Source of the DNA: Eledone cirrhosa
Taxonomy: Eukaryota
NCBI GenBank assembly: GCA_964016885.1
Contig: OZ024740.1
Span: forward strand, 9,362,001 to 9,426,000
Direction: 5' to 3'
DNA: 64,000 bases
Part shown: piece after piece, positions 13,639 through 50,099 of the stretch
Numbering within the stretch: the first letter of the stretch is position 1
Layout of the letters: each line of letters starts with the position of its first letter
Notes under the pieces: model-generated
The model's database searches: none
What the model saw: only the letters and a program-made list of their open reading frames with translations
What the model was told of the DNA's origin: nothing
Translations under genes and position numbers: made by a program

Positions 13639-13654
13639 CCAGTTAAGCGATAGT

Positions 13655-13715: not shown

Positions 13716-14096
13716 GGATGATGGGTTGTTAGCGAGAATGTAAGGTTTAAGATAAGATCGCCGTATTTTGGGCATGATTTAACAATAAACGAAAATACAA
13801 GATTTGTTTTGTTTAAGAAAATATGATAGAGAAAATGCGGTGATAGGGAAAATATGATTTTTAGAGAAAAGATATGATATAGAATGGTGAAAATATGATA
13901 TAGTGTGAATTTAGGACATAGAAGTGATTGAATGAATGGGTTCGAATGGAGAGAAGAATCGAGAAAAATTTTGAACGTTACTTTATACCGAAGGAACCGA
14001 AGGGAACAGCCATCCCAGAAATAGCGAGTTGGCAATTTTGATTAATTTTGGTAGGGTTTTTATCTTATATGTATAGAGAGGGAGGGGGGGGGCAGC

Positions 14097-17000: not shown

Positions 17001-19960
17001 GTATGTCAGTTTCTATTATTATGTCAGTTTCTATTGGTATATCAGTTTCGATTGGTATATCGGTTTCGATTGGTATATCAGTTTTGATTGGTATGTCAGT
17101 TTCTATTATTATGTCAGTTTCAATTGGTATATCAGTTTCGATCGGTATGTAAGTTTTATTGGTATGTCAGTTTTGATTGGTATATCAGTTTTGGTTGGTA
17201 TGTCAGTTTCGATTGGGATGTCAGTTTCTATTGGTATATCAGTTTCGATTGGTATGTCAGTTTCTATTGGTATATCAGTTTCGATTGGTATATCAGTTTC
17301 AATTGGTATGTCAGTTTCGATTGGTATATCAGTTTCGATTGGTATGTCAGTTTCGATAGGTATGTAAGTTTCGATTAGTATATCAGTTTCGAATGGTATG
17401 TCAGTTTTATTGTTATGTCAATTTCGATTGGTATATCAGTTTCGGTTGGTATGTTAGTTTCGATTGGTATATCAGTTTCTGTTGGTATGTCAGTTTCGAT
17501 TAGTATATCAGTTTCTGTTGGTATGTCAGTTTCGATTGATATATCAGTTTCGATTGTTATGTCAGTTTCTATTGGTATATCAGTTTTGACTGGTATGTTA
17601 GTTTCTATTGGTATGTCAGTTTCGATTAGTGTATTAGTTTCTATTGGTATGTCATTTTCGATTGGTATGTTAGTCCTCGATTTGTATGTCTGTTTCTATT
17701 GGTATATCAGTTTCGATTGGTATGTAAGTTTCGATTGGTATGTCAGTTTCGACTGGTATATCAGTTTCTATTGCTATGTCAGTTTCGATTGTTATGTCAG
17801 TTTCTGTTGGTATATCAGTTTCGATTGATATATCAGTTTCGATTAGTATATCAGTTTTGATTGGTATGTCAGTTTCTATTATTATGTCAGTTTCTATTGG
17901 TATATCAGTTTCGATTGGTATATCGGTTTCGATTGGTATATCAGTTTTGATTGGTATGTCAGTTTCTATTATTATGTCAGTTTCAATTGGTATATCAGTT
18001 TCGATCGGTATGTAAGTTTTATTGGTATGTCAGTTTTGATTGGTATATCAGTTTTGGTTGGTATGTCAGTTTCGATTGAGATGTCAGTTTCTATTGGTAT
18101 ATCAGTTTCGATTGGTATGTCAGTTTCTATTGGTATATCAGTTTTGATAAGTATATCAGTTTCTATTGGTATGTCAGTTTCGATTGGTATGTCTGTTTCG
18201 ATTGGTATATCAGTTTCGAATGGTATGTCAGTCTCGATTGGTATGTCCGTTTTGATTGGTATAGCAGTTTCTATTTGTATGTCAGTTTCGATTTGTATGT
18301 CAGTTTCTATTGGTATATCAGTTTCATTTAGTGTGTTTATTTCTATTGGTATGTCAGTTTCGATTAGTATATCAATTTCTATTGGTATGTTAGTTTCGAT
18401 TGGTATGTTAGTTCTCGATTTGTATGTCAGTTTCTATTGGTATATCAGTTTCGATTTGTATGTCAGTTTTGATTGGTAAGTCAATTTCGATTGGTTTATC
18501 AGATCCGAATAGTATGTCAGTTTCGATTAGTATATCAGTTACTACGTGTATGTCAGTTTCTATTGCTATATCAGTTTTGATTGGTATATCAGTTTCGATT
18601 GGTATGTCTGTTTCGATTGGTATATCAGTTTCGATTGGTATGTCAGTTTCGATTGGTATGTAAGTTTCGATTAGTATATCAGTTTCGAATGGTATGTCAG
18701 TTTTGATTGGTATATCAGTTTCGATTGGTATGTCAGTTTCGATTGGTATGTAAGTTTCGATTAGTATATCAGTTTCGAATGGTATGTCAGTTTTGATTGG
18801 TATATCAGTTTCGATTGGTATGTCACTTTCGATTGGTATGTCAGTTTCGTTTGGTATATCAGTTTCGATTAGTATGTCAGTTTCTATTGGTATATCGGTT
18901 TCCATTGCTATATCAGTTTCGATTGGTATTTCAGTTTCTATGTGTATATCAGTTTCTATTTGTATGTCAGTTTCAATTGGTATGTCAGTTTCTATTGGTA
19001 TATCAGTTTTGATTGGTATGTCAGTTTCTATTGGTATATCAGTTTTGATTAGTATATCAGTTTCTATTGGTATGTCAGTTTCGATTGGTATGTCTGTTTC
19101 GATTGGTATATCAGTTTCGAATGGTATGTCAGTCTCGATTGGTATGTCCGTTTTGATTGGTATAGCAGTTTCTATTGGTATGTCAGTTTCGATTAGTATA
19201 TCAGTTTCTATTGGTATGTTAGTTTCGATTGGTATGTTAGTTCTCGATTTGTATGTCAGTTTCTATTTAGCATATCAGTTTAGATTGGTATGTCAGTTTC
19301 TATTGGTATATCAGTTTCGATAGGTATCTCAGTTTCGATTGGTATGTCAGTTTCAATTGGTAAGTCAATTTCGACTGGTTTATCAGATCCGATTAGTATG
19401 TCAATTTCTATCAGTATATCAGTTTCGAATGGTTTGTCAGTTTCGATTGGTATGTTAGTTTCTATTGGTATATCAGTTTGTATTGGTATGTCAGTTTCTG
19501 TTAGTATATCAGTTTCGATTGGTATATCAGTTTCGATTGGTATGTCAATTTCGATTGGTATATCAGTTTCGTTTGGTATATCAGTTTCGATTGTTATGTC
19601 AGTTTCTATTGGTATATCAGTTTCAACTGGTATGTTATTTTCGATTGGTATGTTAGTCCTTGATTTGTATGTCAGTTTCTATTGGTATATCAGTTTCAAT
19701 TAGTATATCAGTTACTATTTGTATGTCTGTTTCTATTGCTATATCAGTTTCGATTGGTATGTCAGTTTCGATTGGTATGTAAGTTTCGATTAGTATATCA
19801 GTTTCGAATGGTATGTCAGTTTCGATTGGTATGTCAGTTTCGATTGGTATATCAGTTTCGATTAGTATGTCAGTTTCTATTGGTATATCGGTTTCCATTG
19901 CTATATCAGTTTCGATTGGTATTTCAGTTTCTATGGGTATATCAGTTTCTATTTGTATGT
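14097..19960. repeat. 18-bp satellite block 2, including an 863-bp tandem duplication (~16430-18150)
   Basis: Same monomer; variant strings recur at offset 863 (16501/17364; pseudo-ORFs 16552/17415, 16877/17740). Confidence 0.98.
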
Positions 19961-19971
19961 ATATATATTTG

Positions 19972-20016
<45 letters not shown>
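19961..20016. repeat. (AT)n microsatellite at the 5' junction of copy 2
   Basis: AT run, preceded by a 16-bp duplication atttgtatgtatatat (19951-19966 / 19967-19982). Confidence 0.9.
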
Positions 20017-20019
<3 letters not shown>

Positions 20020-20323
20020 ATAAGTTCTCCTTCATGTTTATTCACTTTCGCCAATCCATCGCTGCTTCAATTATTCCTACTACGGTGTACCCATGTAAAT
20101 CGTAAAGTACAAATTTTTCTCTATCTACTCCACGCTCAATTTCGTACATAGTCCAAACATCCAATCTCGCAAAATCCGAAATCTGTATTTTTTGTTATCT
20201 ATTTAAGGTTTAAATACGGTGTTTTTGTCGTATTGAACAGAACAAATCTTGCAGTTTTGCTTTTTGTTAAATCGCTTGTTAAACATTCATAACCTTCCAG
20301 CTAGCTACCCCACACCCCTCCCA

Positions 20324-20432
20324 CCCGCCCCCACACACCACCATTCTTAATACGTTGACCAATCATAAGCCAGAGCCTCCCCCCACGCATCACCATTATT
20401 ATTATTACGCGGACCAATCATAAGCCAGAGGC
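20324..20432 (+). promoter_or_regulatory. GC box plus two tandem ~50-bp CCAAT modules in the 5' UTR of copy 2
   Basis: cccgccccc at ~20324; gaccaatcataagccagag twice (CCAAT at 20359 and 20414). Confidence 0.5.
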
Positions 20433-20476
20433 CTATACTATCGCTTGCCCGGTTGCCTTCGATATATGATGGATGA

Positions 20477-23400
20477 ATGGATGGATGGACGGACTGCGGA
20501 ATCCTGGAGAGTGGAAGGGAGAGAAAAATCTGGACGCTCAGAGCGAAAATGCCAAAGTTAAAGTCAAATTCACCTCGTGGACGAGAATGCGAGCACTCCT
20601 CTTTGTTTCGTCCGCGGATGGCTAACATAACCCTATCTCCCCCCGCCCCCCACCACCCCCACCCTCCAAACGCAACCCAAAACTTCAGAGTTGGTACCAT
20701 AAATGTAGGCACCCTAAAGGATCGCGCTAACGAGGCTGTAGAAATGCTTGAACGTAAGGAGGTCGATGTTTGTTGTATTCAAGAGACCAGGTGGAGGGGT
20801 GGGTCTGCTAGATTCATTGAGGGTAAAAAACGATGTTATAAGCTTTTCTGGGTGGGAAACGACGATGGGCTGGGTGGAGTAGGAATCATGGTAGCAGAAA
20901 AGTGGGCAGATAAGATAATAGACGTAAATAGAGTGAACGACAGAATAATTAAAATATGACTTGTCCTCAATAGAACTACGGTGACAGTAATATCTGCGTA
21001 CGCACCCCAATCCGGACTGCCCGGCACTATAAAAGACAGATTCTATGAGACACTGTTGCTAACTACCTCCCAAATATCTGACAGTGACTATATAATTATT
21101 GCAGGCGACCTAAATGGTCACGTTGGACAACATTGTGACGGCTACGACGAAATCCATGGAGGCTATGGGTTTGGTACTAGAAATGAGGAAGGCTCCAGAA
21201 TCCTGGAATTCTGTGATGCAAATAACCTAACTATCTGTAACACTAACTTCAAAAAACGTGACAATCACCTGATCACCTATAGATCCGGGGAACACACAAG
21301 CCAGGTAGATTATATCCTTACCAGAAGACGTGACAGAGTGTCTGTTGTAAACACTAAATCCCTCCCCCATGAAGAATGCACCTCCCAACATAGACTGATA
21401 ATTAGCGACCTCATAGTCAGGACGAGACGTACTCGACAGCAGAAGAGGACTATCCTCAGGAGGAAAATATGGAAACTAAAGGACCCCACAGCCAGAAATA
21501 AATTTCAAAGCATATTACTTGATGCTTTTGACAGTAAGGAAGAGCATCTAGAATCGGACAATATAGAGGGACAGTGGGAATTTCTGAAAGCAAACCTGCT
21601 GTTGGCGACAGACGAAGTCTGTGGCTGGAGCAGGCCTGTAGGCAGGAGGAGAGTAACATGGTGGTGGAACAGTAGGGTGGAGGGGTCAATTAAGGCCAAA
21701 AAGCAGGCTTGGAAAGTATGGCGGGATGGGGGAAGTAGAGTAGACTATCAAGTGGCCAGGAGGGAAGCTAGGAGAGAAGTGTACTTAGCAAGAAGGGAAG
21801 CTGAGGAAAGAAAGTTCAAGCATGTTCTACAACGCGATGACCAAAAACGTGAGGTGTTCAGGATTGCTAGGCAATGCGTCAAGGAAAACCGTGATATTGT
21901 CGGGGAGAAGTGTGTACTTAACGATGATGGCATACTTGCCATCACCGACACTGATAAGAAGGTAGCTTGGAAGTGTCACTATGAAAGGCTACTAAATGAG
22001 GAGAATAAATGGGAGAAAGACAGTCTCCCCCATATCGACCCAATACAGGGACCAGCAGTGTTAGTCGAGGGGAGTATAATAAGTAAGGCAATCAAGGATA
22101 TGAAGACGGGTAAGGCAGCTGGGCCTTCGGAAATAGTTGCTGAGATGCTGAAGGCATCTGGCACGGTGGGACACACCATGGTCACCCGCATAGTTAACCA
22201 AGTCGTACAGAATGGGGTTGTTCCGAAGGACTGGCATAGCAGCATCATCGTTAACTGTTATAAGGGTAAAGGAGACGCACTAGATAGGAGTAACTATAGA
22301 GGCATTAAATTAATCGACCAGGTCATGAAGGTCACGGAAAAAGTAATAGCGCAACTAATCAGAGAGAGAATTGACCTAGATGAAATGCAGTTCGGGTTTG
22401 TGTCAGGCAAAAGCACCACAGACGCTCTTTTCATAGTACGACAACTACAGGAGAAGTACCTAGCTAAAGGTAAACCCCTCTACTTAGCTTTTGTCGACCT
22501 GGAGAAAGCCTTCGACAGAGTCCCCCGCTCCATTATCTGGTGGGCTCTTAGAAAACTAGGCGTTGACGAATGGCTTGTGAGGGCTATACAAGCCATGTAT
22601 AAAGAAACAGTCAGCAAGGTTAGAATTAACAACGAATATAGTGAAGAGTTTAGCGTAAAAGTTGGCGTCCATCAGGGCTCTGTTCTCAGCCCCCTACTAT
22701 TTATTATTGCCCTTCAGGCTATAACAGAGGAGTTCAAGACAGGCTGCCCATGGGAACTCCTATACGCAGACAACCTGACACTCATAGCGGAATCAATGGC
22801 CAAGCTAGAGAAGAAATTCCAAACATGGAAGCACGGCCTAGAGTCAAAAGGACTTAAAATTAACCTGGCTAAGACCAAAGTTCTAGTTTGTAGGAAAGAA
22901 AACAAGGCGGCGGTCCCTTCTGGGAAATGGTCGTGCTCGGTGTGTAGGAAAGGCGTAGGTAGAAACTCCATTTTATGTCCTAAATGCAAAGTATGGGTGC
23001 ATAAAAGATGTAGTGGGATCACAGGTAAGCTAACTAAGAACATAGATTTTACATGTGGCCGGTGTTCTGGTGCAATAAGTAGCAGCAAGTGCCCACAAAA
23101 TACTAGCTCTTTCAATTGCGCAGAGGGTTCTATAGAAATAGTGGACAGCTTCCGTTACCTGGGCGATAAAATCAGCAGTGGGGGAGGGTGCTCTGAAAGT
23201 ACTGTAGCTAGAGTCAGAACTGGTTGGAAAAAGTTCAGAGAGCTTATACCACTATTAGCTGCTAAAGGGTTCTCCCTAAAAATGAAAGGCAGGTTGTACG
23301 ATGCCTGCATACGAACAGCAATGTTACATGGTAGTGAGACCTGGGCATTGTGTGCAGAGGATATACGCAGACTAGAGAGGAACGAAGCTTGCATGCTCCG

Positions 23401-23731
23401 CTGGATGTGTAACAGTAATATACGTGAACGGCAAAGCATAAACGAACTAAGGAAAAAATTAGAGATAAGAGGGATCAGATGTTGTTTACTCGAGAGAAGG
23501 CTGCGTTGGTATTGACACGTGATGCGCATGAAAGTCGATAGCTGTATAACAAAGTGCAGGGCAATAAAGATAGACGGTAGCCACGGAATAGGCAGACCTA
23601 GAAAAACCTGGGATGAGCTGATAAACTCCGACCTCACACACTTACACCTCTCCAAGACAATGTCACTGGACCGAGACCTTTGGCGGTACTCAGTAACAGA
23701 GAAGACCCGCCTTGCCAGTAGGCATCTCTAA
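20477..23731 (+). pseudogene. Disrupted APE-RT ORF of copy 2
   Basis: In-frame stops at 20957-20959 (CGA>TGA) and 23513-23515 (GGA>TGA); catalytic YADD changed to YADN; small deletion removes the normal stop near 23713. Confidence 0.92.
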
Positions 23732-24085
23732 CAAAATACACCCCGTCCCGCCACCACCCCCACCCCATCCACACCACCCCGTTCTATGTAAAGTTATGTT
23801 GGTGCCGCGCCATCCAGGCCGAAACAAATGAGATCGTGTAGGTGTCACGACAAAAAAACACACAGTCCATGCTGTAATGTGGCCGTGTAGGCAACACGGT
23901 AAAAACCTCCCAGACCCACACTGTAAATGTGGTTGGTGTTAGGAAGGGCATCCAACTGTAGAAAACCTGCCAGACAGTCCTATGCGAACAAGACAATCAC
24001 TCTTGCCTCAAGTGGGACTACCCCCGTCCAAACCCATGCAAGCGTGGAACACGGACGTTAAACGTTGATGATGATGATGATGATG

Positions 24086-24195
24086 ATGTCAGTTTCAATT
24101 GGTATGTCAGTTTCTATTGGTATATCAGTTTCAATTGGTATATCAGTTTCGATTGGTACATCAGTTTCGATTGGTATGTCAGTTTCGATTGGTAT
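24086..24195. repeat. 18-bp satellite spacer (about 6 monomers)
   Basis: Same monomer between copy 2 and the CR1-like fragment. Confidence 0.95.
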
Positions 24196-24771
24196 AATAA
24201 TGATAATGAAATTATTGTGTAAAGTGCTCAGGTGCACTACAACTCGTCAATATAGTACATAGAATAATACACAAATGTCAGGGAAGTTCATGTGTGTATG
24301 TGTTAGCTGTTCTGTTGGCGGATCTCGGGAAGCATGGAGGCCTTAAAGGATGCAGTGTCTCGACAGCTGACAACTGATGCAGGTAGTTTGTTCCATGCTT
24401 CAGCAACGCTGAGCGTGAAAAAATGTTTCCGAAAGTCATGGGAACTGTGCTGTTTTCTTACTTTGTGGGCATGTCCACGTGTGTTAGACACATGGAAATC
24501 GAAAAGGTACTCAGGGTTGTTGTTGGCAACATGGTTAACAATTTTGTGGGTGTTTACCAAGTCAGTTGCCAGGCGTCGGAGCTTCAATGAATCCATGCCC
24601 AGGGAAGCAAGGCGCTCAGAGTATAGTAGATGCCTGATGGAGGGTATTCGCTTGGTTGCACGTCTCTGAACAGTTTCCAGGCGGTCAATGTCCTGAGCAA
24701 GATAGGGGTTCCAGACTGGTGATGCAAATTCTAAGTGTGGTCGCACAATAGCTGTATACAGCCTTAAATAG
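24196..24771 (-). mobile_element. 5'-truncated CR1-like LINE fragment (ORF2 C-terminus + 3' UTR)
   Basis: ORF 24303-24746 reads (LYTAI)VRPHLEFASPVWNPY..DIDRLETVQRRATK..YSERL..LRR..D..TRGH..FF...WNKLP, typical of CR1/L2-group C-termini; short TTA/TCA-rich tail at 24194-24209. Confidence 0.88.
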
Positions 24772-25334
24772 ATGTAAGTTTCGATTGGTATATCAGTTTC
24801 GATTGTTATGTCAGTTTCTATTGGTATATCAGTTTCGACTGGTATGTTATTTTCGATTGGTATGTTAGTCCTCGATTTGTATGTCAGTTTCTATTGGTAT
24901 ATCAGTTTCAATTAGTATATCAGTTACTATTTGTATGTCAGTTTCTATTGGTATATCAGTTTCAATTGGTATATCAGTTTCGATTGGTATGTCTGTTTCG
25001 ATTGGTATATCAGTTTCGATTGGTATGTCAGTTTCGATTGGTATGTAAGTTTCGATTAGTATATCAGTTTCGAATGGTATGTCAGTTTTGATTGGTATAT
25101 CAGTTTCGATTGGTATGTCAGTTTCGATTGGTATGTCAGTTTCGATTGGTATATCAGTTTCGATTAGTATGTCAGTTTCTATTGGTATATCGGTTTCCAT
25201 TGCTATATCAGTTTCGTTTGGTATTTCAGTTTCTATGGGTATATCAGTTTCTATTTGTATGTCGGTTTCAATTGGTATGTCAGTTTCTATTGGTATATCA
25301 GTTTCGATTGATATATCAATTTCGATTAGTATGT
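24772..25334. repeat. 18-bp satellite block
   Basis: Same monomer; variant order resembles ~19570-19960. Confidence 0.97.
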
Positions 25335-27219
25335 GAGGCAATTACAGGAAAAGTACCTAGCTAAAAGTAAGCCACTCTACTTGGCATTTGTCGTAATACT
25401 AGAAGGGGCCATACCAAAAGATTGGTGCAGTAGCATCATTGTCAACTGCTACAACGGTAAAGGCGATGCACTAGATAGAGGAAACTATAGAGGTATAAAG
25501 TTGATGGACCAGGTCATGAAAGTAACAGAAAGAGTTATAGCACAGCTGATTAGGGACCGGGTGAATATAGACGAGATGCAATTTGGGTTTGTACCAGGGA
25601 AAGGCACCACTGATGCCCTCTTTCTTGTGAGGCAATTACAGGAAAAGTACCTAGCTAAAAGTAAGCCACTCTACTTGGCATTTGTCGACCTTGAGAAAGC
25701 CTTTGACAGAGTTCCACGTGCAGTAATCTGGTGGGCTCTTAGAAAACTAGGAGTAGATGAATGGCTTGTGAAAGCGGTACAAGCCATGTATAGGGGAGCA
25801 GTCAGCAAAGTTAGGATTGGCAATGAGTATAGCGAGGAATTTAGCGTACAGGTTGGGGTCCACCAGGGCTCTGTTCTTAGCCCTCTCCTGTTCATCATAG
25901 TCCTGCAGGCAATAACGGAGGAGTTTAAGACCGGATGCCCATGGGAACTCCTGTATGCTGATGACCTCGCACTCATAGCTGAATCTATGGTAGAACTAGA
26001 GAATAAATTCCAAACCTGGAAGCAGGGACTAGAGAGAAAGGGCCTCAAAGTCAACATGACAAAGACTAAGGTCCTTATAAGTAGACGAGAAAACAGAACC
26101 CAGATCCCCTCAGGGAAATGGCCTTGCTCAGTATGTAGGAAAGGTGTAGGTAGGAACTCCATTCTCTGCCCCAAATGCAAACAATGGGTACACAAGAGAT
26201 GTAGCGGGATCTCAGGAAGCTTAATTAAGAATGTAGGATTCACATGCAGCAGCTGTGCTGAAACAGCAAGCAAACAGCCACAGGAAACAAGTACCACCAA
26301 TCTCTGGGAGGGCCCTGTAGAAACAGTAGACAGCTTCTGCTAACTAGGTGACCGAATTAGCAACGGAGGTGGGTGCTCAGAAAGTACAATAACTAGGGTA
26401 AGAACGGGATGGAAGAAGTTTAGGGAACTACTACCACTGCTAGCTGCAAAAGGCTTCTCCCTCAGAATGAAAGGCTGACTGTATGATGCGTGTATCCGAA
26501 CAGCGATGTTGCATGGTAGTGAGACCTGGGCGCTGAAGGTGGAAGACCTACGTAGATTAGAGAGAAACGAGGCCTGCATGCTCCGATGGATGAGTAACAG
26601 TAATATACGTGAACGACAAAGCATAAAGGAATTGAGAGAGAGACTGAGCATAAGAGGAATCAAATGCTGCGTGCAGGAGAGGCGGTTACGCTGGTATGGA
26701 CATGTGATGCGTATGAAGGATGACAGCTGCATAAAAAGGTGCAGAGCACTAGAAGTTGATGGAAACCGCGGAGTGGGGAGACCCAAGATGACTTGGGATG
26801 AGGTGATAAAAGCCGACCTTACCCAACTACACCTCTCAAAGACAATGACACACGACCGTGACTTCTGGCGTCACGCAGTAATACAGGGTACCCGACCTCC
26901 CATGGGTACATGCTGAAGCATATAAACAATATGCCCCCACTCCCCCCACCGCAAGGTGGTCGTGGAGGTGCCACGGCAAATAAGCACCCAGCCCACACTG
27001 TAAAGTGGACGTGTAGGCGCCACGAAAAAGCACCCAGCACTCACTGTAAATGAGGTTGGTGTTAGGAAGGGCATCCAGCTGTAGAAATCAAGCCAGATCA
27101 GTTCCTGTATGAGCAAGGCATGGTCAGCCGACCAGACACTGCCCACAACAGGACAACCCGTCTAACCCATGCTAGCGTGGAAGAACGGACGTAAAACGGT
27201 GATGATGATGATGATGATG
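25332..27219 (+). mobile_element. RTE-like family B, copy 1 (5'-truncated, with a 62-bp duplicated internal piece at its 5' end)
   Basis: RT motifs as in family A but diverged in sequence; distinct 3' UTR; (TGA)n tail at 27200-27219. Confidence 0.93.
25333..26916 (+). pseudogene. Truncated, disrupted RT ORF of family B copy 1
   Basis: Stops at 26341 (TAC>TAA) and ~26476 (AGA>TGA) relative to copy 2 of family B; no endonuclease domain. Confidence 0.9.
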
Positions 27220-32750: not shown

Positions 32751-32949
32751 GCAACACGGTAAAAACCTCCCAGACCCACACTGTAAATGTGGTTGGTGTT
32801 AGGAAGGGCATCCAACTATAGAAAACATGCCAGACGGTCCTATGCGAGCAAGACAATCACTCTTGCCTCAAGTGGGACTACCCCCGTCCAAACCCATGCA
32901 AGCGTGGAACACGGACGTTAAACATTGATGATGATGATGATGATGATGA
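32748..32949 (+). mobile_element. 200-bp 3'-terminal stub of RTE-like family A
   Basis: Matches 23888-24088 (taggcaacacgg...acggacgttaaac) and ends in (TGA)8 at 32926-32949. Confidence 0.93.
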
Positions 32950-37917: not shown

Positions 37918-38051
37918 TTGTATTTATTAATTGTTAAATACGAAAGTTTTTGGTCGTATTGAACAGAACAAATTTTGTATTTTTTGTTAATCGCTTGTTA
38001 AATGCAAGGACCCCATTCAATCATTACCTCCTATCTCTTCTCCTTCTTATA

Positions 38052-38165
38052 AATTCCTTAATTCCTTAATTCTTAATCTAGCGTATTTTCAAACCTTAAT
38101 TCCTAGCGTATTTTCAAACCTCAATCCCTAATTCTAGCGTATTTTCAAAAAAAAAAAAAAAAAAA
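38052..38165 (+). repeat. Short tandem repeats (aattcctt-like x3, ctagcgtattttcaaa x3) ending in A19
   Basis: ctagcgtattttcaaa at 38078, 38103 and 38134; poly(A) at 38147-38165. Confidence 0.85.
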
Positions 38166-38275
38166 TCCTTTCCTTCTTCCGAAACTCCCGCTTACACTCG
38201 ACCCCCCCACCCGCTACTTCGAAGGCATGGGGCGGTCAAACGCCTAACACACACAACCATCATGCGGCCACCCCC

Positions 38276-38309
<34 letters not shown>
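38276..38309. repeat. (CT)n(AT)n compound microsatellite in the 5' region of copy 3
   Basis: ctctctctctctctctatatatatatatatatat. Confidence 0.9.
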
Positions 38310-38410
38310 GATAGGAATTCACTTCGCCAAATTTCATTGCTTTGCTGTCTACCCCACGATATTCATGTAATGTACATATTTTCCTTCATCTCTACCTCCA
38401 CAAATCCTAA

Positions 38411-38505
38411 AACGCACCACCATTGCTATTACGTGGACCAATCATAAGCCAGAGCCCCCACGCATCACCAGTATTATTACGCGGACCAATCAGAAGCCAG
38501 AGGCC
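38411..38505 (+). promoter_or_regulatory. Two tandem CCAAT modules in the 5' UTR of copy 3
   Basis: ggaccaatca with CCAAT at 38438 and 38486 (48-bp spacing). Confidence 0.5.
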
Positions 38506-38611
38506 TATACTATCGCTTGCCTGGTTGCCTTTCGATATATGATGGATGGATGGACTGCGGAATCCTGGAGAGTGAAGGAGAGAGAGAGAAAAATCTGGAC
38601 GCTCAGCGACA

Positions 38612-41600
38612 ATGCCAAAGATAAAGACAAATTCACCTCTTGGACGAGAATGCGAGCACTCCTCATTGTTTCGACCGCGGACGGCTAACATAACCCCATC
38701 GCCCCCGCCCCCCACCGCCCCCAACCCCCAAACGCAATCCAAAACTTCAGAGTTGGTAGCATAAATGTAGGCACCCTAAAGGGTCGCGCTAACGAGGTTG
38801 TAGAAATGCTTGAACGTAAGGAGGTCGATGTTTGTTGTATTCAAGAGACCAGGTGGAGGGGTGGGTCTGCTAGGTTCATTGAGGGTAAAAAACGATGTTA
38901 TAAGCTTTTCTGGGTGGGAAACGACGATGGGCTGGGTGGAGTAGGAATCATGGTAGCAGAAAAGTGGGCAGATAAGATAATAGACGTAAATAGAGTGAAC
39001 GACAGAATAATTAAAATACGACTTGTCCTCAATAGAACTACGGTGACAGTAATATCTGCGTACGCACCCCAATCCGGACTGCCCGGCACTATAAAAGACA
39101 GATTCTATGAGACACTGATGCTAACTACCTCCCAAATATCCGACAGTGACTATATAATTATCGCAGGCGACCTAAATGGTCACGTTGGACAACATTGTGA
39201 CGGCTACGACGAAATCCATGGAGGCTATGGGTTTGGTACTAGAAATGAGGAAGGCTCCAGAATCCTGGAATTCTGTGATGCAAATAACCTAACTATCTGT
39301 AACACTAACTTCAAAAAACGTGACAATCACCTGATCACCTATAGATCCGGGGAACACACAAGCCAGGTAAATTATATCCTTACCAGAAGACGTGACAGAG
39401 TGTCTGTTGTAAACACTAAATCCCTCCCCCATGAAGAATGCACCTCCCAACATAGACTGATAATTAGCGACCTCATAGTCAGGACGAGACGTACTCGACA
39501 GCAGAAGAGGACTATCCTCAGGAGAAAAATATGGAAGCTAAAGGACCCCACAGCCAGGAATAAATTTCAAAGCACAATACTTGATGCTTTCGAAAGTAAG
39601 GAAGAACATTTAGAGTCGGACAATATAGAGGGAGAGTGGGAATTTCTGAAAGCAAACCTGCTGTTGGCGACAGACAAAGTCTGTGGCTGGAGCAGGCCTG
39701 CAGGCAGGAGGAGAGTAACATGGTGGTGGAACAGTAAGGTGGAACGGTCAATTAAGGCCAAAAAGCAGGCTTGGAAAGTATGGCGGGATGGGGGAAGTAG
39801 AGAAGACTATCAAGTGGCCAGGAAGGAAGCTAGGAGACAAGTGTACTTAGCAAGAAGGGAAGCTGAGGAAAGAAAGTTCAAGCATGTTCTACAACGCGAT
39901 GACCAAAAACGTGAGGTGTTCAGGATTGCTAGGCAATGCGTCAAGGAAAACCGTGATATTGTCGGGGAGAAGTGTGTACTAAACGACGATGGCACACTTG
40001 CCATCACCGACGCTGATAAGAAGGTAGCTTGGAAGTGTCACTATGAAAGGCTACTAAATGAGGAGAATAAATGGGAGAAAGACAGTCTCCCCCATATCGA
40101 CCCAATAGAGGGACCAGCAGTGTTAGTCGAGGGGAGTATAATAAGTAAGGCAATCAAGGATATGAAGACGGGTAAGGCGGCTGGGGCTTCGGAAATAGTT
40201 GCTGAGATGCTGAAGGCATCTGGCACGGTGGGACACACCATGGTCACCCGCATAGTTAACCAAGTCGTACAGAATGGGGTTGTTCCGAAGGACTGGCATA
40301 GCAGCATCATCGTTAACTGTTATAAGGGTAAAGGAGACGCCCTAGATAGGAGTAACTATAGAGGCATTAAATTAATCGACCAGGTCATGAAGGTCATGAA
40401 AAAGTAATAGCGCAACTAATCAGAGAGAGAATTGACCTAGATGAAATGCAGTTCGGGTTTGTGTCAGGCAAAAGTACCACAGACGCTCTTTTCATAGTAC
40501 GACAACTACAGGAGAAGTACCTAGCTAAAGGTAAACCCCTCTACTTAGCTTTTGTCGACTTGGAGAAAGCCTTCGACAGAGTCCCCCGCTCCATTATCTG
40601 GTGGGCTCTTAGAAAACTAGGCGTTGACGAATGGCTTGTGAGGGCTATACAAGCCATGTATAAAGAAACAGTCAGCAAGGTTAGAATTAACAACGAATAT
40701 AGTGAAGAGTTTAGCGTAAAAGTTGGCGTCCAACAGGGCTCTGTTCTCAGCCCCCTACTATTTATTATTGCCCTTCAGGCTATAACAGAGGAGTTCAAGA
40801 CAGGCTGCCCATGGGAACTCCTATACGCAGACGACCTCACACTCATAGCGGAATCAATGGCCGAGCTAGAGAAGAAATTCCAAACATGGAAGCACGGGCT
40901 AGAGTCAAAAGGACTTAAAATTAACCTGGCTAAGACCAAAGTACTAGTTTGTAGGAAAGAAAACAAGGCGGCGGTCCCTTCTGCGAAATGGTCGTGCTCG
41001 GTGTGTAGGAAAGGCGTAGGTAGAAACTCCATTTTATGTCCTAAATGCAAAGTATGGGTGCATAAAAGATGTAGTGGGATCACAGGTAAGCTAACTAAGA
41101 ACATAGATTTTACATGTGGCCGATGTTCTGGTGCAATAAGTAGCAGCAAGTGCCCACAAAATACTAGCTCTTTCAATTGCGCAGAGGGTTCTATAGAAAT
41201 AGTGGACAGCTTCCGTTACCTGGGCGATAAAATCAGCAGTGGGGGAGGGTGCTCTGAAAGTACTGTAGCTAGAGTCAGAACTGGTTGGAAAAAGTTCAGA
41301 GAGCTTATACCACTATTAGCTGCTAAAGGGTTCTCCCTAAAAATGAAAGGCAGGTTGTACGATGCCTGCATACGAACAGCAATGCTGCATGGCAGTGAGA
41401 CCTGGGCATTGTGTGCAGAGGATATACGCAGACTAGAGAGGAACGAAGCTTGCATGCTCCGCTGATGTGTAACAGTAATATACGTGAACGGCAAAGCATA
41501 AACGAACTAAGGAAAAAATTAGAGATAAGAGGGATCAAATGTTGTTTACTCGAGAGAAGGCTACGTTGGTATGGACACGTGATGCGCATGAAAGTCGATA

Positions 41601-41779
41601 GCTGTATAACAAAGTGCAGCGCAATAAAGATAGACGGTAGTCACGGAATAGGCAGACCTAGAAAAACCGGGGACGAGCTGATAAACTCCGACATCACACA
41701 CTTACACCTCTCCAAGACAATGACACTGGACCGAGACCTTTGGCGGTACTCAGTAACAGAGAAGACCCGCCTTACCTAA
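38612..41779 (+). pseudogene. Frameshifted APE-RT ORF of copy 3 (pieces 38806-40407, 40446-41465, 41411-41779)
   Basis: 1-bp deletions near 40397 and 41464, plus a frame break in the C-rich stretch near 38720; APE motif VDYIL changed to VNYIL. Confidence 0.92.
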
Positions 41780-42173
41780 ATATATAGTAAAACCTACTCC
41801 AGCCAGTAGGCATCTCTAACAAAATACACCCCGTCCCACCACCACCACCCCCACCCCATCCACACGACCCCGTTCTATGTAAAGTTATGTTGGTGCCGCG
41901 CCATCGAGGCCGAAACAAATGAGATCGTGTAGGTGTCACGACAAAAAAACACACAGTCCACGCTGTAATGTGGCCGTGTAGGCAACACGGTAAAAACCTC
42001 CCAGACCCACACTGTAAATGTGGTTGGTGTTAGGAAGGGCATCCAACTGTAGAAAACCTGCCAGACAGTCCTATGCGAGCAAGACAATCACTCTTGCCTC
42101 AAGTGGGACTACCCCCGTCCAAACCCATGCAAGCGTGGAACACGGACGTTAAACGTTGATGATGATGATGATG

Positions 42174-44948
42174 ATGTCAGTCTCGATTGTTATGTCAGTT
42201 TCTTTTGGTATATCAGTTTCGAATGGTATGTCAGTTTTGATTGGTATATCAGTTTCGATTGGTATGTCAGTTTCTATGGGTATATCAGTTTTGATTGGTA
42301 TGTTAGTTTCTATTGGTATGTCAGTTTCGATTTGTATATCAGTTTCTATTGGTATGTCAGTTTCGATTGGTATGTTCGTCCTTGATTTGTATGTCAGTTT
42401 CTATTGGTATATCAATTTCGATTGGTATGTCAGTTTTAATTGGTATATCAGTTTCGATTGGTATATCAGTTTCTATTGGTATATCAATTTCGATTTGTAT
42501 GTCAGTTTCGATTGGCATATCAGTTTCGATTGGTATATCAGTTTCGATTGGTATGTCAGTTTCTATTGGTATGTCAGTTTCAATTGGTATATCAGTTTTG
42601 ATTGGTATGTCAGTTTTATTGGTATACCAGTTTCGATTGGTATGTCAGTTTCTATTGGTATGTCAGTTTCGATTGGTATGTCAGTTTTGATTGGTATATC
42701 AGTTTCGATTGGTATGTCAGTTTCTATTGGTATATCAGTTTCTATCGGAATCTCAGTTTCTAATGGTATGTCAGTTTCTATTGGTATATCAGTTTCGATT
42801 GGTATATCAGTTTCGATTGGCATGTCAGTTTCGATTGGTATGTCAGTTTCGATGGTATGTCAGTTTCGATTGGTATATCAGTTTCGATTAGTATATCAGT
42901 TTCTATTGGTATGTCAGTTTTGATTGGTATGTCAGTTTCTACTGGTATATCAGTTTTGATTGGTATATCAGTTTCTATTGGTATATCAGTTTCGATTAGT
43001 ATATCAGTTTCTATTGGTATGTCAGTTTCTATTGGTATATCAATTTCGATTGGTATGTCAGTTTCGATTGGTATATCAGCTTCGATTCGTATGTCAGTTT
43101 CGATTAGTATATCAATTTCTAATTGTATGTCAGTTTCTATTGGTATATCAGATTCGATTGGTATATCAGTTTCGACTGGTATGTCAATTTTGATTGTTAT
43201 GTCAGTTTCGATTGTTATGTCAGTTTCGATTGGTATGTCAGTTTCGATTTTATATCAGTTTTCATTGGTATATCAGTTTCGATTCGTATGTCAGTTTCGA
43301 TTGGTATGTCAGTTTCGATTGGTATATCTGTTTCGATTAGTATGTCAGTTTCTATTGGTATATCGGTTTCCATTGGTATATCAGTTTCGATTGGTATGTC
43401 AGTTTCTATTGGTATATCAATTTTGATTGGTATGTTAGTTTCTATTGGTATGTCAGTTTCGATTTGTATATCAGTTTCTATTGGTATGTCAGATTCGATT
43501 GGTATGTTAGTCCTCGATTTGTATGTCAGTTTCTATTGGTATATCAATTTCGATTGGTATGTCAGTTTCTATTGGTATATCAGTTTCGATTAGTATATCA
43601 GTTTCTATTGGTATGTCAGTTTCTATTGGTATATCAATTTCTATTGGTATATCGGTTTCCATTGGTATATCAGTTTTGATTGGTATGTCAGTTTCTATTG
43701 GTATATCAGTTTCTATTGGTATGTCAGTTTCGATTGGTATGTCAGTTTCGATTGGTATGTCAGTTTCGATTGGTATGTCAGTTTCGATTAGTATATCAGT
43801 TTCTATTGGTATGTCAGTTTCTATTGGTATGTCAGTTTCGATTGGTATATCAGTTTCTATTGGTATATCAGTTTCATTTGATATATCAATTTCGATTAGT
43901 ATGTCACTTTCTATTGGTATGTCAGGTACGATTAGTATATCAGTTTGTGTTGGTGTATCAGTTTCGATTGGTATGTCAGTTTCTATTGGTATATGACTTT
44001 CGATTGGTATATCAGTTTCGACTGGTATATCAGTTTCGATTGGTATGTCAGTTTCTATTGGTATGTCAGTTTCGATTAGTATATCAGTTTCTATTGGTAT
44101 GTCAGTTTCAATTGGTATGTCAGTTTCTATTGGTATATCAGTTTCTATTGGTATGTCAGTTTCTATTGGTATGTCAGTTTCAATTGGTATATCAGTTTCG
44201 ATTCGTATGTCAGTTTCTATTGGCATGTCAGTTTCAATTGGTATGTCTGTTTCTATTGGTATATCAGTTTCTATTGGTATGTCAGTTTCTATTGGTATGT
44301 CAGTTTCAATTGGTATATCAGTTTCAATTGGTATGTCAGTTTCTATTGGTATATCAGTTTCTATTGGTATGTCAGTTTCTATTGGTATGTCAGTTTCAAT
44401 TGGTATATCAGTTTCGATTCGTATGTCAGTTTCTATTGGTATGTCAGTTTCAATTGGTATGTCAGTTTCTATTGGTATATCAGTTTCTATTGGTATGTCA
44501 GTTTCTATTGGTATGTCAGTTTCAATTGGTATATCAGTTTCAATTGGTATGTCAGTTTCTATTGGTATATCAGTTTCTATTGGTATGTCAGTTTCTATTG
44601 GTATATCAGTTTCGATTCGTATGTCAGTTTCTATTGGTATGTCAGTTTCAATTGGTATGTCAGTTTCTATTGGTATATCAGTTTCTATTGGTATGTCAGT
44701 TTCTATTGGTATGTCAGTTTCAATTGGTATATCAGTTTCGATTCGTATGTCAGTTTCTATTGGTATGTCAGTTTCAATTGGTATGTCAGTTTCTATTGGT
44801 ATATCAGTTTCTATTGGTATGTCAGTTTCTATTGGTATGTCAGTTTCTATTGGTATATCAGTTTCTATTGGTTTGTCAGTTTCTATTGGTATGTCAGTTT
44901 CTATTGGTTTGTCAGTTTCAATTGGCATATCAGTTTCGATTCGTATGT
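42174..44948. repeat. 18-bp satellite block between the duplicated LINEs
   Basis: Same monomer; contains the duplication junction at ~43089-43105. Confidence 0.98.
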
Positions 44949-45306
44949 TTGTATTTATTAATTGTTAAATACGAAAGTTTTTGGTCGTATTGAACAGAAC
45001 AAATTTTGTATTTTTTGTTAATCGCTTGTTAAATGCAAGGACCCCATTCAATCATTACCTCCTATCTCTTCTCCTTCTTATAAATTCCTTAATTCCTTAA
45101 TTCTTAATCTAGCGTATTTTCAAACCTTAATTCCTAGCGTATTTTCAAACCTCAATCCCTAATTCTAGCGTATTTTCAAAAAAAAAAAAAAAAAAATCCT
45201 TTCCTTCTTCCGAAACTCCCGCTTACACTCGACCCCCCCACCCGCTACTTCGAAGGCATGGGGCGGTCAAACGCCTAACACACACAACCATCATGCGGCC
45301 ACCCCC

Positions 45307-45340
<34 letters not shown>

Positions 45341-48300
45341 GATAGGAATTCACTTCGCCAAATTTCATTGCTTTGCTGTCTACCCCACGATATTCATGTA
45401 ATGTACATATTTTCCTTCATCTCTACCTCCACAAATCCTAAAACGCACCACCATTGCTATTACGTGGACCAATCATAAGCCAGAGCCCCCACGCATCACC
45501 AGTATTATTACGCGGACCAATCAGAAGCCAGAGGCCTATACTATCGCTTGCCTGGTTGCCTTTCGATATATGATGGATGGATGGACTGCGGAATCCTGGA
45601 GAGTGAAGGAGAGAGAGAGAAAAATCTGGACGCTCAGCGACAATGCCAAAGATAAAGACAAATTCACCTCTTGGACGAGAATGCGAGCACTCCTCATTGT
45701 TTCGACCGCGGACGGCTAACATAACCCCATCGCCCCCGCCCCCCACCGCCCCCAACCCCCAAACGCAATCCAAAACTTCAGAGTTGGTAGCATAAATGTA
45801 GGCACCCTAAAGGGTCGCGCTAACGAGGTTGTAGAAATGCTTGAACGTAAGGAGGTCGATGTTTGTTGTATTCAAGAGACCAGGTGGAGGGGTGGGTCTG
45901 CTAGGTTCATTGAGGGTAAAAAACGATATTATAAGCTTTTCTGGGTGGGAAACGACGATGGGCTGGGTGGAGTAGGAATCATGGTAGCAGAAAAGTGGGC
46001 AGATAAGATAATAGACGTAAATAGAGTGAACGACAGAATAATTAAAATACGACTTGTCCTCAATAGAACTACGGTGACAGTAATATCTGCGTACGCACCC
46101 CAATCCGGACTGCCCGGCACTATAAAAGACAGATTCTATGAGACACTGATGCTAACTACCTCCCAAATATCCGACAGTGACTATATAATTATCGCAGGCG
46201 ACCTAAATGGTCACGTTGGACAACATTGTGACGGCTACGACGAAATCCATGGAGGCTATGGGTTTGGTACTAGAAATGAGGAAGGCTCCAGAATCCTGGA
46301 ATTCTGTGATGCAAATAACCTAACTATCTGTAACACTAACTTCAAAAAACGTGACAATCACCTGATCACCTATAGATCCGGGGAACACACAAGCCAGGTA
46401 AATTATATCCTTACCAGAAGACGTGACAGAGTGTCTGTTGTAAACACTAAATCCCTCCCCCATGAAGAATGCACCTCCCAACATAGACTGATAATTAGCG
46501 ACCTCATAGTCAGGACGAGACGTACTCGACAGCAGAAGAGGACTATCCTCAGGAGAAAAATATGGAAGCTAAAGGACCCCACAGCCAGGAATAAATTTCA
46601 AAGCACAATACTTGATGCTTTCGAAAGTAAGGAAGAACATTTAGAGTCGGACAATATAGAGGGAGAGTGGGAATTTCTGAAAGCAAACCTGCTGTTGGCG
46701 ACAGACAAAGTCTGTGGCTGGAGCAGGCCTGCAGGCAGGAGGAGAGTAACATGGTGGTGGAACAGTAAGGTGGAACGGTCAATTAAGGCCAAAAAGCAGG
46801 CTTGGAAAGTATGGCGGGATGGGGGAAGTAGAGAAGACTATCAAGTGGCCAGGAAGGAAGCTAGGAGACAAGTGTACTTAGCAAGAAGGGAAGCTGAGGA
46901 AAGAAAGTTCAAGCATGTTCTACAACGCGATGACCAAAAACGTGAGGTGTTCAGGATTGCTAGGCAATGCGTCAAGGAAAACCGTGATATTGTCGGGGAG
47001 AAGTGTGTACTAAACGACGATGGCACACTTGCCATCACCGACGCTGATAAGAAGGTAGCTTGGAAGTGTCACTATGAAAGGCTACTAAATGAGGAGAATA
47101 AATGGGAGAAAGACAGTCTCCCCCATATCGACCCAATAGAGGGACCAGCAGTGTTAGTCGAGGGGAGTATAATAAGTAAGGCAATCAAGGATATGAAGAC
47201 GGGTAAGGCGGCTGGGGCTTCGGAAATAGTTGCTGAGATGCTGAAGGCATCTGGCACGGTGGGACACACCATGGTCACCCGCATAGTTAACCAAGTCGTA
47301 CAGAATGGGGTTGTTCCGAAGGACTGGCATAGCAGCATCATCGTTAACTGTTATAAGGGTAAAGGAGACGCCCTAGATAGGAGTAACTATAGAGGCATTA
47401 AATTAATCGACCAGGTCATGAAGGTCATGAAAAAGTAATAGCGCAACTAATCAGAGAGAGAATTGACCTAGATGAAATGCAGTTCGGGTTTGTGTCAGGC
47501 AAAAGTACCACAGACGCTCTTTTCATAGTACGACAACTACAGGAGAAGTACCTAGCTAAAGGTAAACCCCTCTACTTAGCTTTTGTCGACTTGGAGAAAG
47601 CCTTCGACAGAGTCCCCCGCTCCATTATCTGGTGGGCTCTTAGAAAACTAGGCGTTGACGAATGGCTTGTGAGGGCTATACAAGCCATGTATAAAGAAAC
47701 AGTCAGCAAGGTTAGAATTAACAACGAATATAGTGAAGAGTTTAGCGTAAAAGTTGGCGTCCATCAGGGCTCTGTTCTCAGCCCCCTACTATTTATTATT
47801 GCCCTTCAGGCTATAACAGAGGAGTTCAAGACAGGCTGCCCATGGGAACTCCTATACGCAGACGACCTCACACTCATAGCGGAATCAATGGCCGAGCTAG
47901 AGAAGAAATTCCAAACATGGAAGCACGGGCTAGAGTCAAAAGGACTTAAAATTAACCTGGCTAAGACCAAAGTACTAGTTTGTAGGAAAGAAAACAAGGC
48001 GGCGGTCCCTTCTGCGAAATGGTCGTGCTCGGTGTGTAGGAAAGGCGTAGGTAGAAACTCCATTTTATGTCCTAAATGCAAAGTATGGGTGCATAAAAGA
48101 TGTAGTGGGATCACAGGTAAGCTAACTAAGAACATAGATTTTACATGTGGCCGATGTTCTGGTGCAATAAGTAGCAGCAAGTGCCCACAAAATACTAGCT
48201 CTTTCAATTGCGCAGAGGGTTCTATAGAAATAGTGGACAGCTTCCGTTACCTGGGCGATAAAATCAGCAGTGGGGGAGGGTGCTCTGAAAGTACTGTAGC

Positions 48301-49207
48301 TAGAGTCAGAACTGGTTGGAAAAAGTTCAGAGAGCTTATACCACTATTAGCTGCTAAAGGGTTCTCCCTAAAAATGAAAGGCAGGTTGTACGATGCCTGC
48401 ATACGAACAGCAATGCTGCATGGCAGTGAGACCTGGGCATTGTGTGCAGAGGATATACGCAGACTAGAGAGGAACGAAGCTTGCATGCTCCGCTGATGTG
48501 TAACAGTAATATACGTGAACGGCAAAGCATAAACGAACTAAGGAAAAAATTAGAGATAAGAGGGATCAAATGTTGTTTACTCGAGAGAAGGCTACGTTGG
48601 TATGGACACGTGATGCGCATGAAAGTCGATAGCTGTATAACAAAGTGCAGCGCAATAAAGATAGACGGTAGTCATGGAATAGGCAGACCTAGAAAAACCG
48701 GGGACGAGCTGATAAACTCCGACATCACACACTTACACCTCTCCAAGACAATGACACTGGACCGAGACCTTTGGCGGTACTCAGTAACAGAGAAGACCCG
48801 CCTTACCTAAATATATAGTAAAACCTACTCCAGCCAGTAGGCATCTCTAACAAAATACACCCCGTCCCACCACCACCACCCCCACCCCATCCACACGACC
48901 CCGTTCTATGTAAAGTTATGTTGGTGCCGCGCCATCGAGGCCGAAACAAATGAGATCGTGTAGGTGTCACGACAAAAAAACACACAGTCCACGCTGTAAT
49001 GTGGCCGTGTAGGCAACACGGTAAAAACCTCCCAGACCCACACTGTAAATGTGGTTGGTGTTAGGAAGGGCATCCAACTGTAGAAAACCTGCCAGACAGT
49101 CCTATGCGAGCAAGACAATCACTCTTGCCTCAAGTGGGACTACCCCCGTCCAAACCCATGCAAGCGTGGAACACGGACGTTAAACGTTGATGATGATGAT
49201 GATGATG
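44949..49207 (+). mobile_element. RTE-like family A, copy 4 (duplicate of copy 3)
   Basis: Same junctions, tail length and frameshifts as copy 3, at offset 7031. Confidence 0.95.
45643..48810 (+). pseudogene. Frameshifted APE-RT ORF of copy 4 (pieces 45837-47438, 47477-48496, 48442-48810)
   Basis: Shares the lesions of copy 3; differs at RCY/RYY and GVQQG/GVHQG. Confidence 0.92.
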
Positions 49208-50099
49208 TCAGTCTCGATTGTTATGTCAGTTTCTTTTGGTATATCAGTTTCGAATGGTATGTCAGTTTTGATTGGTATATCAGTTTCGATTGGTATGTCA
49301 GTTTCTATGGGTATATCAGTTTTGATTGGTATGTTAGTTTCTATTGGTATGTCAGTTTCGATTTGTATATCAGTTTCTATTGGTATGTCAGTTTCGATTG
49401 GTATGTTCGTCCTTGATTTGTATGTCAGTTTCTATTGGTATATCAATTTCGATTGGTATGTCAGTTTTAATTGGTATATCAGTTTCGATTGGTATATCAG
49501 TTTCTATTGGTATATCAATTTCGATTTGTATGTCAGTTTCGATTGGCATATCAGTTTCGATTGGTATATCAGTTTCGATTGGTATGTCAGTTTCTATTGG
49601 TATGTCAGTTTCAATTGGTATATCAGTTTTGATTGGTATGTCAGTTTTATTGGTATACCAGTTTCGATTGGTATGTCAGTTTCTATTGGTATGTCAGTTT
49701 CGATTGGTATGTCAGTTTTGATTGGTATATCAGTTTCGATTGGTATGTCAGTTTCTATTGGTATATCAGTTTCTATCGGAATCTCAGTTTCTAATGGTAT
49801 GTCAGTTTCTATTGGTATATCAGTTTCGATTGGTATATCAGTTTCGATTGGCATGTCAGTTTCGATTGGTATGTCAGTTTCGATGGTATGTCAGTTTCGA
49901 TTGGTATATCAGTTTCGATTAGTATATCAGTTTCTATTGGTATGTCAGTTTTGATTGGTATGTCAGTTTCTACTGGTATATCAGTTTTGATTGGTATATC
50001 AGTTTCTATTGGTATATCAGTTTCGATTAGTATATCAGTTTCTATTGGTATGTCAGTTTCTATTGGTATATCAATTTCGATTGGTATGTCAGTTTCGAT

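What the first reader, a model, noticed from the sequence alone, without database searches (positions are those of the whole stretch)
19951..49210. RTE insertions hit the same register of the 18-bp monomer: (ATG)n tail fused to the monomer ATG, with an apparent 4-bp ATGT duplication
Seen: three independent plus-strand insertions have left flank ...gtATGT| and right flank (ATG)n merging into ATGTcag (19960/24086, 25334/27217, 37917/42174). Two more tails end tga|cagtttc at the same monomer position (31838, 32950). Matching empty sites exist in sister repeats (~1961-2030 for copy 2; ~33461-33510 for copy 3). Known: TPRT can be primed by tail-target microhomology. Inference: the satellite offers a periodic landing site, and both families nick or prime at one of 18 possible positions, leaving much shorter target duplications than typical L1-type TSDs. 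This would be a satellite-phased LINE integration system.
Basis: partly seen in the sequence, partly recalled or inferred. Interest (0 to 1): 0.75.

Follow-up and report, generated by a model that had tools for sequence, protein, structure and literature searches.

The report
LINEs land in phase in satellite
Very common jumping genes enter an 18-letter DNA repeat at the same spot of the unit in 81 of 82 independent cases, but over 99% of their copies lie elsewhere, mostly beside TA runs, so the fixed spot likely reflects their ordinary cutting preference and not a system aimed at this repeat.

Summary
The phase lock is real. The window lies in a 2.36-Mb array of the 18-bp unit GTATRTCAGTTTCNATTG. 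In 1.12 Mb held, 81 of 82 independent RTE-like LINE/SINE insertions join at one AT: 70 sense (GT^ATRT), 11 antisense; the exception is in this window (9884). The 3-6-bp duplication is real (30 of 36 concordant at a variable base; 38% expected).

The interpretation needs correcting. ATAT sites are used as often as ATGT (29:40, background 52% G). Better tail-homology sites in the unit go unused, so pairing alone does not set the phase. Only 0.3-0.4% of copies lie in the array, at densities like nearby ordinary DNA; outside it they sit in TA runs. The phase likely reads out a genome-wide short target rule, probably helped by the unit's TTT 9-11 bases upstream, the published RTE signature. A phased LINE in a satellite is already described in Cuscuta.

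Unexplained: 174.5 kb of neighbouring satellites, mostly ATRT-rich, hold no insertion. This scan noted the same pattern earlier in other windows of this array.

The parts
1..64000 (+). 18-bp satellite, unit GTATRTCAGTTTCNATTG, interrupted by the insertions below; part of a 2.36-Mb array (G000:C1:7,229,887-9,587,786)
   Evidence: TRF period 18 in seven long blocks plus a 108-bp one; position matrix from 2,305 monomers; array ends; dimer pattern 21,975 forward, 144 reverse genome-wide
9884..14098 (-). Family A (A2 variant) full-length RTE-like LINE with an intact 1,033-aa ORF (13494-10396: APE endonuclease, RT, PHD finger); the one off-phase insertion (tail joins at unit positions 15-16, 2-bp target deletion)
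   Evidence: ORF; Pfam; phase
19957..19960 (+). Left copy of ATGT duplication, insertion 1
19961..24085 (+). Family A LINE, near full length, ORF broken by a stop; 5' end begins with a (TA)n tract (19956-20017); (GAT)n tail
24086..24089 (+). Right copy ATGT; the AT is shared with the tail
24196..24771 (-). 3' fragment of an unrelated LINE with an (ATT)n-like tail (CR1-like by recalled motif, untested); it joins at the same GGTAT| core
   Evidence: no BLAST match to A or B; ends; no Pfam hit
25335..27216 (+). Family B LINE, 5'-truncated, with a 61-bp internal copy at its 5' end; ATGT at 25331-25334 and 27217-27220; 3-nt 5' microhomology
30004..31837 (+). Family B LINE, 5'-truncated at the same point as the core of 25335-27216 (98% alike); tail ends TGA|CAG; left ATATC vs right ATGAC
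32749..32949 (+). Family A 3' fragment (about 200 bp); tail ends TGA|CAG; target deletion at the 5' side
37918..42173 (+). Family A LINE, near full length, frameshifted; ATGT at 37914-37917 and 42174-42177
44949..49204 (+). Duplicate of 37918-42173 (tandem duplication 36058-43105 / 43089-50136, 99.94%); not an independent insertion

Best explanation
RTE-like LINEs and a SINE join this satellite at one AT per strand of each 18-bp unit, likely because that spot is the only one that fits a short target rule they use genome-wide. Inferred steps: the APE endonuclease nicks the strand opposite an alternating T^ATRT stretch, the same kind of site as the (TA)n runs they favour elsewhere. The freed 3' end (..AT) pairs with the (GAU)n RNA tail over about 2 bases and primes reverse transcription. 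The second strand is cut about 4-6 bases downstream. The overhang is then joined directly or by short 5' annealing, or is trimmed, giving duplications of 1-6 bp or small deletions. The sense site wins about 6:1, probably because ATRT is preferred to ATAC and because the unit's TTT lies 9-11 bases upstream of the sense site only. Later array duplications multiply some insertions.
For: Shown: 70 sense and 11 antisense events at the GTAT core, 1 elsewhere, of 82 independent. Whole-genome junction patterns give 81 sense hits in the array and 16 of 16 antisense hits at GGTAT|CATC with none shifted by 1-3 bases. Outside the array (TA)3 lies within 20 nt of the tail in 24 of 30 A, 22 of 30 B and 17 of 30 SINE/family C loci. 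The array holds 35 of 11,474 A and 41 of 10,219 B pattern hits. Duplication is real: 30 of 36 concordant at variable position 5 vs 37.7% for adjacent monomers (p=3e-8); an 18-bp-longer duplication fits 1 of 36. 5' microhomology averages 1.9 nt vs 0.33 random, in 53 of 72 locatable LINE junctions. Longer tail-homology sites are unused: sense position 14 (3 nt or more in 54% of monomers) and antisense position 8 (3 nt or more in 89%, 4 or more in 43%). Genome-wide SINE 5' junctions: ATRT 10,018, with ATGT in 8 of the first 100 listed, vs ATAC 76. TTT at P-9..-11 occurs in 349 of them vs AAA 82 and TTT at P-5..-7 169; background 1.55%, 1.01% and 1.46%. Known: RTE T-stretch near P-10 and tail-matched first base (PMC6007223, Results and Discussion read).
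Against: The T-run effect is modest (about 2.2-fold) and broad: 276 hits at P-15..-17, with a shorter anchor. It was measured on the SINE, not on families A and B. The ATAC count may be lowered by CpG decay, since ATAC|GG makes a CG. The ATRT core alone is not sufficient: 174.5 kb of neighbouring satellites, mostly with 20-67 TATRT per kb, held 0 tails, against about 73 independent per Mb in three blocks of this array. The off-phase event and 25 of 69 irregular 5' ends are not explained in detail. Nick positions are inferred from junctions only.
Confidence: 0.75

Rival explanations
1. Dedicated satellite targeting: the elements recognise this array (a longer unit motif, or its chromatin through the PHD finger) and seek it out.
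For: Family A is 3.9-fold and family B 5.1-fold above the genome mean. There are no family A pattern hits in about 7.5 Mb of flanking DNA rich in other satellites and no tails in 174.5 kb of other satellites. The ORF carries a PHD finger.
Against: Only 0.3-0.4% of copies are in the array. Nearby non-satellite DNA has similar density: A 14 in 1.09 Mb and 15 in 0.92 Mb vs 14.8/Mb; B 33 in the first 2.04 Mb vs 17.4/Mb. SINE/family C is not enriched (0.63-fold) yet is equally phased. The PHD finger is common among the 120 listed relatives.
Confidence: 0.12
2. Pure tail-target microhomology: nicks fall anywhere and only those where the (GAU)n tail can pair with ATG get used.
For: Every in-phase junction shares AT with the tail; 40 of 70 sense sites continue with G.
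Against: The G share equals background (p=0.34). Sites with equal or longer homology got 0 events (GAT at sense 14-16; TGAT at antisense 8-5), and the AT at sense 15-16 got 0; the AT at antisense 16-15 got 1. The SINE's GAAAT-ended tail lands at the same base.
Confidence: 0.05
3. Apparent phasing from amplification: a few insertions were copied by satellite duplication and conversion.
For: 22 of 106 tails are duplicates, including one pair in this window; several copies share 5' breakpoints.
Against: After removing them, 82 events remain, of four subfamilies, both strands and lengths from about 70 bp to over 4 kb, with distinct 5' ends and flanks.
Confidence: 0.03
4. For the contrast with neighbouring satellites only: this array is older, turns over more slowly or is more open, so it simply kept more insertions; the T-run plays no part.
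For: Neighbouring-copy match is 81-86% in the long blocks here vs 84-93% in most ATRT-bearing neighbours.
Against: One 57-bp array (84-86%) and a 52-bp array (80%) are as diverged, and many insertions here are young (nearest-copy identity of the last 110 nt, median 99-100%). The TTT-N6-8-TATR motif is 51/kb on the sense strand here, 0 antisense, and at most 4.3/kb in the other satellite probes.
Confidence: 0.35

Closest known systems
RTE-clade LINE/SINE insertion signature (plant RTE-1 and Au SINE, Bov-B, Sauria SINE; Nishiyama and Ohshima 2018, PMC6007223; abstract, passages, Results and Discussion read)
   Same: T stretch about 10 nt upstream of the duplication's first base; first base A for animal RTEs and matched to the tail repeat; 3' overlap of 1-2 bases; SINE sharing the LINE's 3' end
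   Different: Duplications here are mostly 3-6 bp against 7-15 bp quoted there (their search required 10 bp or more). The tail is (GAT)n, the main target is (TA)n, the ORF has a PHD finger after the RT, and the T excess here is only about 2-fold.
L1-CS LINEs in the CUS-TR24 satellite of Cuscuta europaea (PMC8091179; passages and section 3.3 read)
   Same: LINE insertions map to fixed monomer positions that match a short cleavage motif, with orientation bias and later segmental duplication
   Different: L1 clade with 13-16-bp duplications and 91% of copies tied to the satellite; here RTE-like, 3-6 bp, 0.3-0.4% of copies, and single-base precision in an 18-bp unit
Zebrafish ZfL2-1 5' junction model (PMC4245944; abstract only)
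   Same: Element-specific short (5-bp) duplication; 5' joining either by annealing or direct
   Different: L2 clade, cell-culture insertions, no satellite context
Repeat-targeting LINEs such as R2, SART/TRAS, Waldo (recalled, not looked up beyond search listings)
   Same: Insert at one register of a tandem repeat
   Different: Those place most copies in their target; these elements do not

Membership tests
RTE-clade LINE | Single ORF with APE endonuclease followed by RT (feature recalled) | tested here: met
   1,033-aa ORF with Exo_endo_phos and RVT_1
RTE-clade LINE | No separate ORF1 and no RNase H (feature recalled) | tested here: met
   About 600 bp upstream of the ORF with no separate frame of 150 aa; no RNase H family in Pfam
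RTE-clade LINE | 3' end in a short tandem repeat | tested here: met
   (GAT)n tails; feature per PMC6007223
RTE-clade LINE | RT groups with named RTE elements in a tree | not tested
   No named RTE reference was available: relatives at 42-53% identity are nearly all unnamed. 'RTE' rests on architecture.
RTE insertion signature (PMC6007223) | T stretch near P-10 | tested here: met
   SINE junctions genome-wide: TTT 349 vs AAA 82 at P-9..-11, about 2.2-fold over background, broad peak; in the array P-10 and P-11 are T in 43 of 43, which the unit itself dictates
RTE insertion signature (PMC6007223) | Duplication of 7-15 bp | tested here: not met
   Mode 4, mostly 3-6 bp; only 3 perfect matches of 8-12 bp among 69 sense events
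Repeat-specific (target-dedicated) LINE | Most copies lie in the target repeat | tested here: not met
   0.31% (A), 0.40% (B), 0.05% (SINE/family C) of pattern hits are in the array
Repeat-specific (target-dedicated) LINE | Fixed insertion position within the repeat unit | tested here: met
   81 of 82 independent events
Repeat-specific (target-dedicated) LINE | Endonuclease nicks the target specifically in vitro | not testable with these tools
   Needs biochemistry

The most novel reading that the evidence does not exclude
This RTE-like lineage with a PHD finger picks out this one satellite among its neighbours by a two-part signal (TTT one helical turn upstream of T^ATRT, possibly plus chromatin read by the PHD finger), and cuts with an unusually short 4-6-base stagger. 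The array of about 100,000 units would then be a natural base-resolution readout of the RTE endonuclease rule.
Probability: 0.2. Interest if true: 0.6.

Novelty: new variant of a known kind. Interest (0 to 1): 0.3.

Why it matters
It is a clean natural test of how a LINE picks its site. Every unit offers the same 36 strand-positions, so 82 events separate endonuclease preference from tail pairing, and they show that pairing length does not choose the site. It also adds an RTE-like family with short duplications and a (TA)n habit. It does not reveal a new satellite-targeting system, since almost all copies are elsewhere. The open point worth a specialist's time is why ATRT-rich neighbouring satellites are empty.

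Tried and rejected
ATG advantage: none. 22-bp duplication hidden by the period: fits 1 of 36. Pure microhomology null: fails. Amplification artefact: 22 duplicates removed by eye, signal stays. The C3 cluster of 7 junction-pattern hits lies in a different, 46-bp satellite and my tail pattern found no RTE tail in the two loci fetched. Naming the clade through relatives failed, as almost none carry names; the protein Atlas gave no result. Duplication length outside the array is mostly unreadable because both flanks are TA runs. Rfam gave only a sub-threshold tRNA match for the SINE head (19.8 bits, E 0.14). PMC3812793 had no relevant passage for my terms; PMC9115989 passages describe an RTE with a 3' microsatellite but no target analysis. 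Seven literature searches found no paper on RTE insertions phased in an animal satellite or on a TA-targeted RTE with 4-6-bp duplications; subscription papers and Repbase were not searchable, and no supplements were read.

Full report
Setting. The window is G000:C1:9,362,001-9,426,000 in a 3.0-Gb genome. It is an 18-bp satellite, unit GTATRTCAGTTTCNATTG, broken by eight insertions: five family A segments (one of them a duplicate), two family B and one unrelated LINE fragment. The satellite is essentially one array in one orientation (21,975 forward, 144 reverse dimer hits), running from 7,229,887 to 9,587,786. The intact copy at 9884-14098 encodes a 1,033-aa APE-RT-PHD protein. I call these elements RTE-like from architecture; no tree with named references was possible.

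Observation. All five quoted junctions are correct. The copy at 44949-49204 is part of a 7,031-bp tandem duplication at 99.94% and is not independent. The minus-strand copy at 9884 is off-phase and lies outside the finding's range.

Larger sample. I held 1,122,400 bases in and at the edges of the array, 0.90 Mb of it satellite: loci around all 35 family A pattern hits, chosen without regard to flank, plus contiguous blocks. A tail search gave 108 hits. I dropped 2 that were not RTE tails, 2 nested inside other elements and 22 duplicates judged by eye from shared ends and flanks, leaving 82. Of these 70 are sense and all join at GT^AT-R; 12 are antisense and 11 join at the AT of the same GTAT core. 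Five tails had a computed phase that I corrected by eye (three with a 1-bp deletion just downstream, two with a variant tail unit). Three sense events are in register but do not read RT after the AT (two GACAG, both in this window; one CTCAG). Whole-genome patterns agree: 81 sense junction hits in the array and 16 of 16 antisense hits flush at GGTAT. Insertions without a recognisable tail were not counted.

Duplication. Left ends peak at unit position 6 (19 of 69), with 5, 6 and 6 at positions 5, 7 and 8, so 3-6 bp counting the AT shared with the tail. The variable position 5 agrees on both sides in 30 of these 36, against 37.7% for adjacent monomers (p=3e-8). One discordant case is a script mis-assignment and is concordant by eye. 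A duplication 18 bp longer fits 1 of 36. Seven events have 1-2 bp, one 7 bp, and 25 end at positions 10-2; only 3 of those match perfectly, so most are target deletions. 5' microhomology with the element averages 1.9 nt vs 0.33 random (53 of 72 LINE junctions located), so single lengths are uncertain by a few bases. Antisense events give ATAC, ATACC or ATACCA in 7 of 12.

What sets the phase. Not ATG pairing: G follows the AT in 40 and A in 29, against 52% G in background (p=0.34). Not homology length: GAT at sense position 14 and TGA(T) at antisense position 8 offer 3-4 bases in many monomers and got no events. Outside the array the same families sit in TA runs: (TA)3 within 20 nt of the tail in 24 of 30 A, 22 of 30 B and 17 of 30 SINE/family C loci, each the first 30 in genome order. 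GTATRT is the only TA-like stretch of the unit.

Strand bias. Two local features fit the 70:12 ratio. SINE 5' junctions genome-wide read ATRT 10,018 times (ATGT in 8 of the first 100 listed) and ATAC 76 times, though ATGT and ATAC are about equally common in background; CpG decay may inflate this gap. The unit's TTT lies at P-9..-11 of the sense site only, the RTE signature of PMC6007223. Among the 10,018 junctions, TTT at that offset occurs 349 times (3.5%; background 1.55%), AAA 82 (0.8%; 1.0%), TTT at P-5..-7 169 (1.7%; 1.46%) and TTT at P-15..-17 276 with a shorter anchor. The signature is present but modest and broad, and was tested on the SINE only.

Enrichment. The array holds 35 of 11,474 family A, 41 of 10,219 family B and 8 of 16,063 SINE/family C pattern hits: 3.9-, 5.1- and 0.63-fold the genome mean, duplicates included. 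Nearby non-satellite DNA is as dense (A 13-16 per Mb, B up to 16 per Mb). Against my reading: the flanking 7.5 Mb, where most probes were other satellites, has no family A pattern hit, and 174.5 kb of satellite in 20 fresh loci, mostly with 20-67 TATRT per kb, had no tail inside satellite, against 53 independent events in 727 kb of satellite in three blocks here. One SINE does lie in the 77-bp satellite, away from its TA run. So the core motif is not enough. The upstream T-run (51 per kb here, at most 4.3 in the other probes), array age or chromatin must supply the rest; I could not separate these.

Mechanism. Shown: positions, strand ratio, duplication sizes, microhomologies, copy distribution. 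Inferred: first nick opposite T^ATRT, priming through about 2 bases of pairing with the (GAU)n tail, second cut 4-6 bases downstream, joining directly, by annealing or after trimming. The 5' joining scheme follows PMC4245944 (abstract only).

Comparison and verdict. Monomer-phased LINE insertion with orientation bias is described for L1-CS in Cuscuta (PMC8091179, section 3.3), where 91% of copies are tied to the satellite. The T-run and tail-matched first base are described for RTEs (PMC6007223). New here are the short duplications, the TA habit and single-base precision in an animal-type array; my seven searches found no paper on these, within the library's limits. Earlier agents of this scan reached the same general reading on other windows of this array (consulted after my reading was written); those notes are not independent support. 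Verdict: real, well supported, a by-product of a general target rule; interest 0.3.

Noticed in passing
G000:C1 about 6.0-17 Mb (loci L071-L090): A patchwork of at least 13 unrelated satellite arrays (units of 19-77 bp) surrounds the 18-bp array; nearly all are free of these LINEs.
   Followed up: partly
window 25335-27216 and 30004-31837; also C1:8071730 vs 9157707 and 8269509 vs 9558703: Separate copies, some in opposite orientation, share 5' truncation points within a few bases, suggesting reverse-transcription stop hot spots or truncated source copies.
   Followed up: no
window 36058-50136: 7,031-bp tandem duplication at 99.94% including a LINE; very recent duplication or an assembly artefact, not checked with reads.
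   Followed up: no
window 24196-24771 and C1:8321088-8324367: An unrelated LINE with an (ATT)n tail: one copy joins at the GGTAT core, the other at ATTG (positions 15-18); a possible control family with a different phase, n=2.
   Followed up: partly
L270:1504-1850 and about 10,000 or more copies genome-wide: A 345-bp SINE with a weak tRNA-like head shares its 3' end with a third LINE family (C) and uses the same satellite phase.
   Followed up: partly
window 12942-10396 region of the ORF, residues 851-894 of the 1,111-aa frame: PHD finger placed after the RT domain; common among relatives at 42-53% identity in public data.
   Followed up: partly
L040 (C1:8,069,200-8,078,699): An inverted block of the satellite, about 8 kb held; its LINE is sense relative to the satellite, not to the chromosome.
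   Followed up: no
C1:9,108,010-9,121,292: Two LINEs inserted one monomer apart, then duplicated with a hybrid third copy.
   Followed up: no
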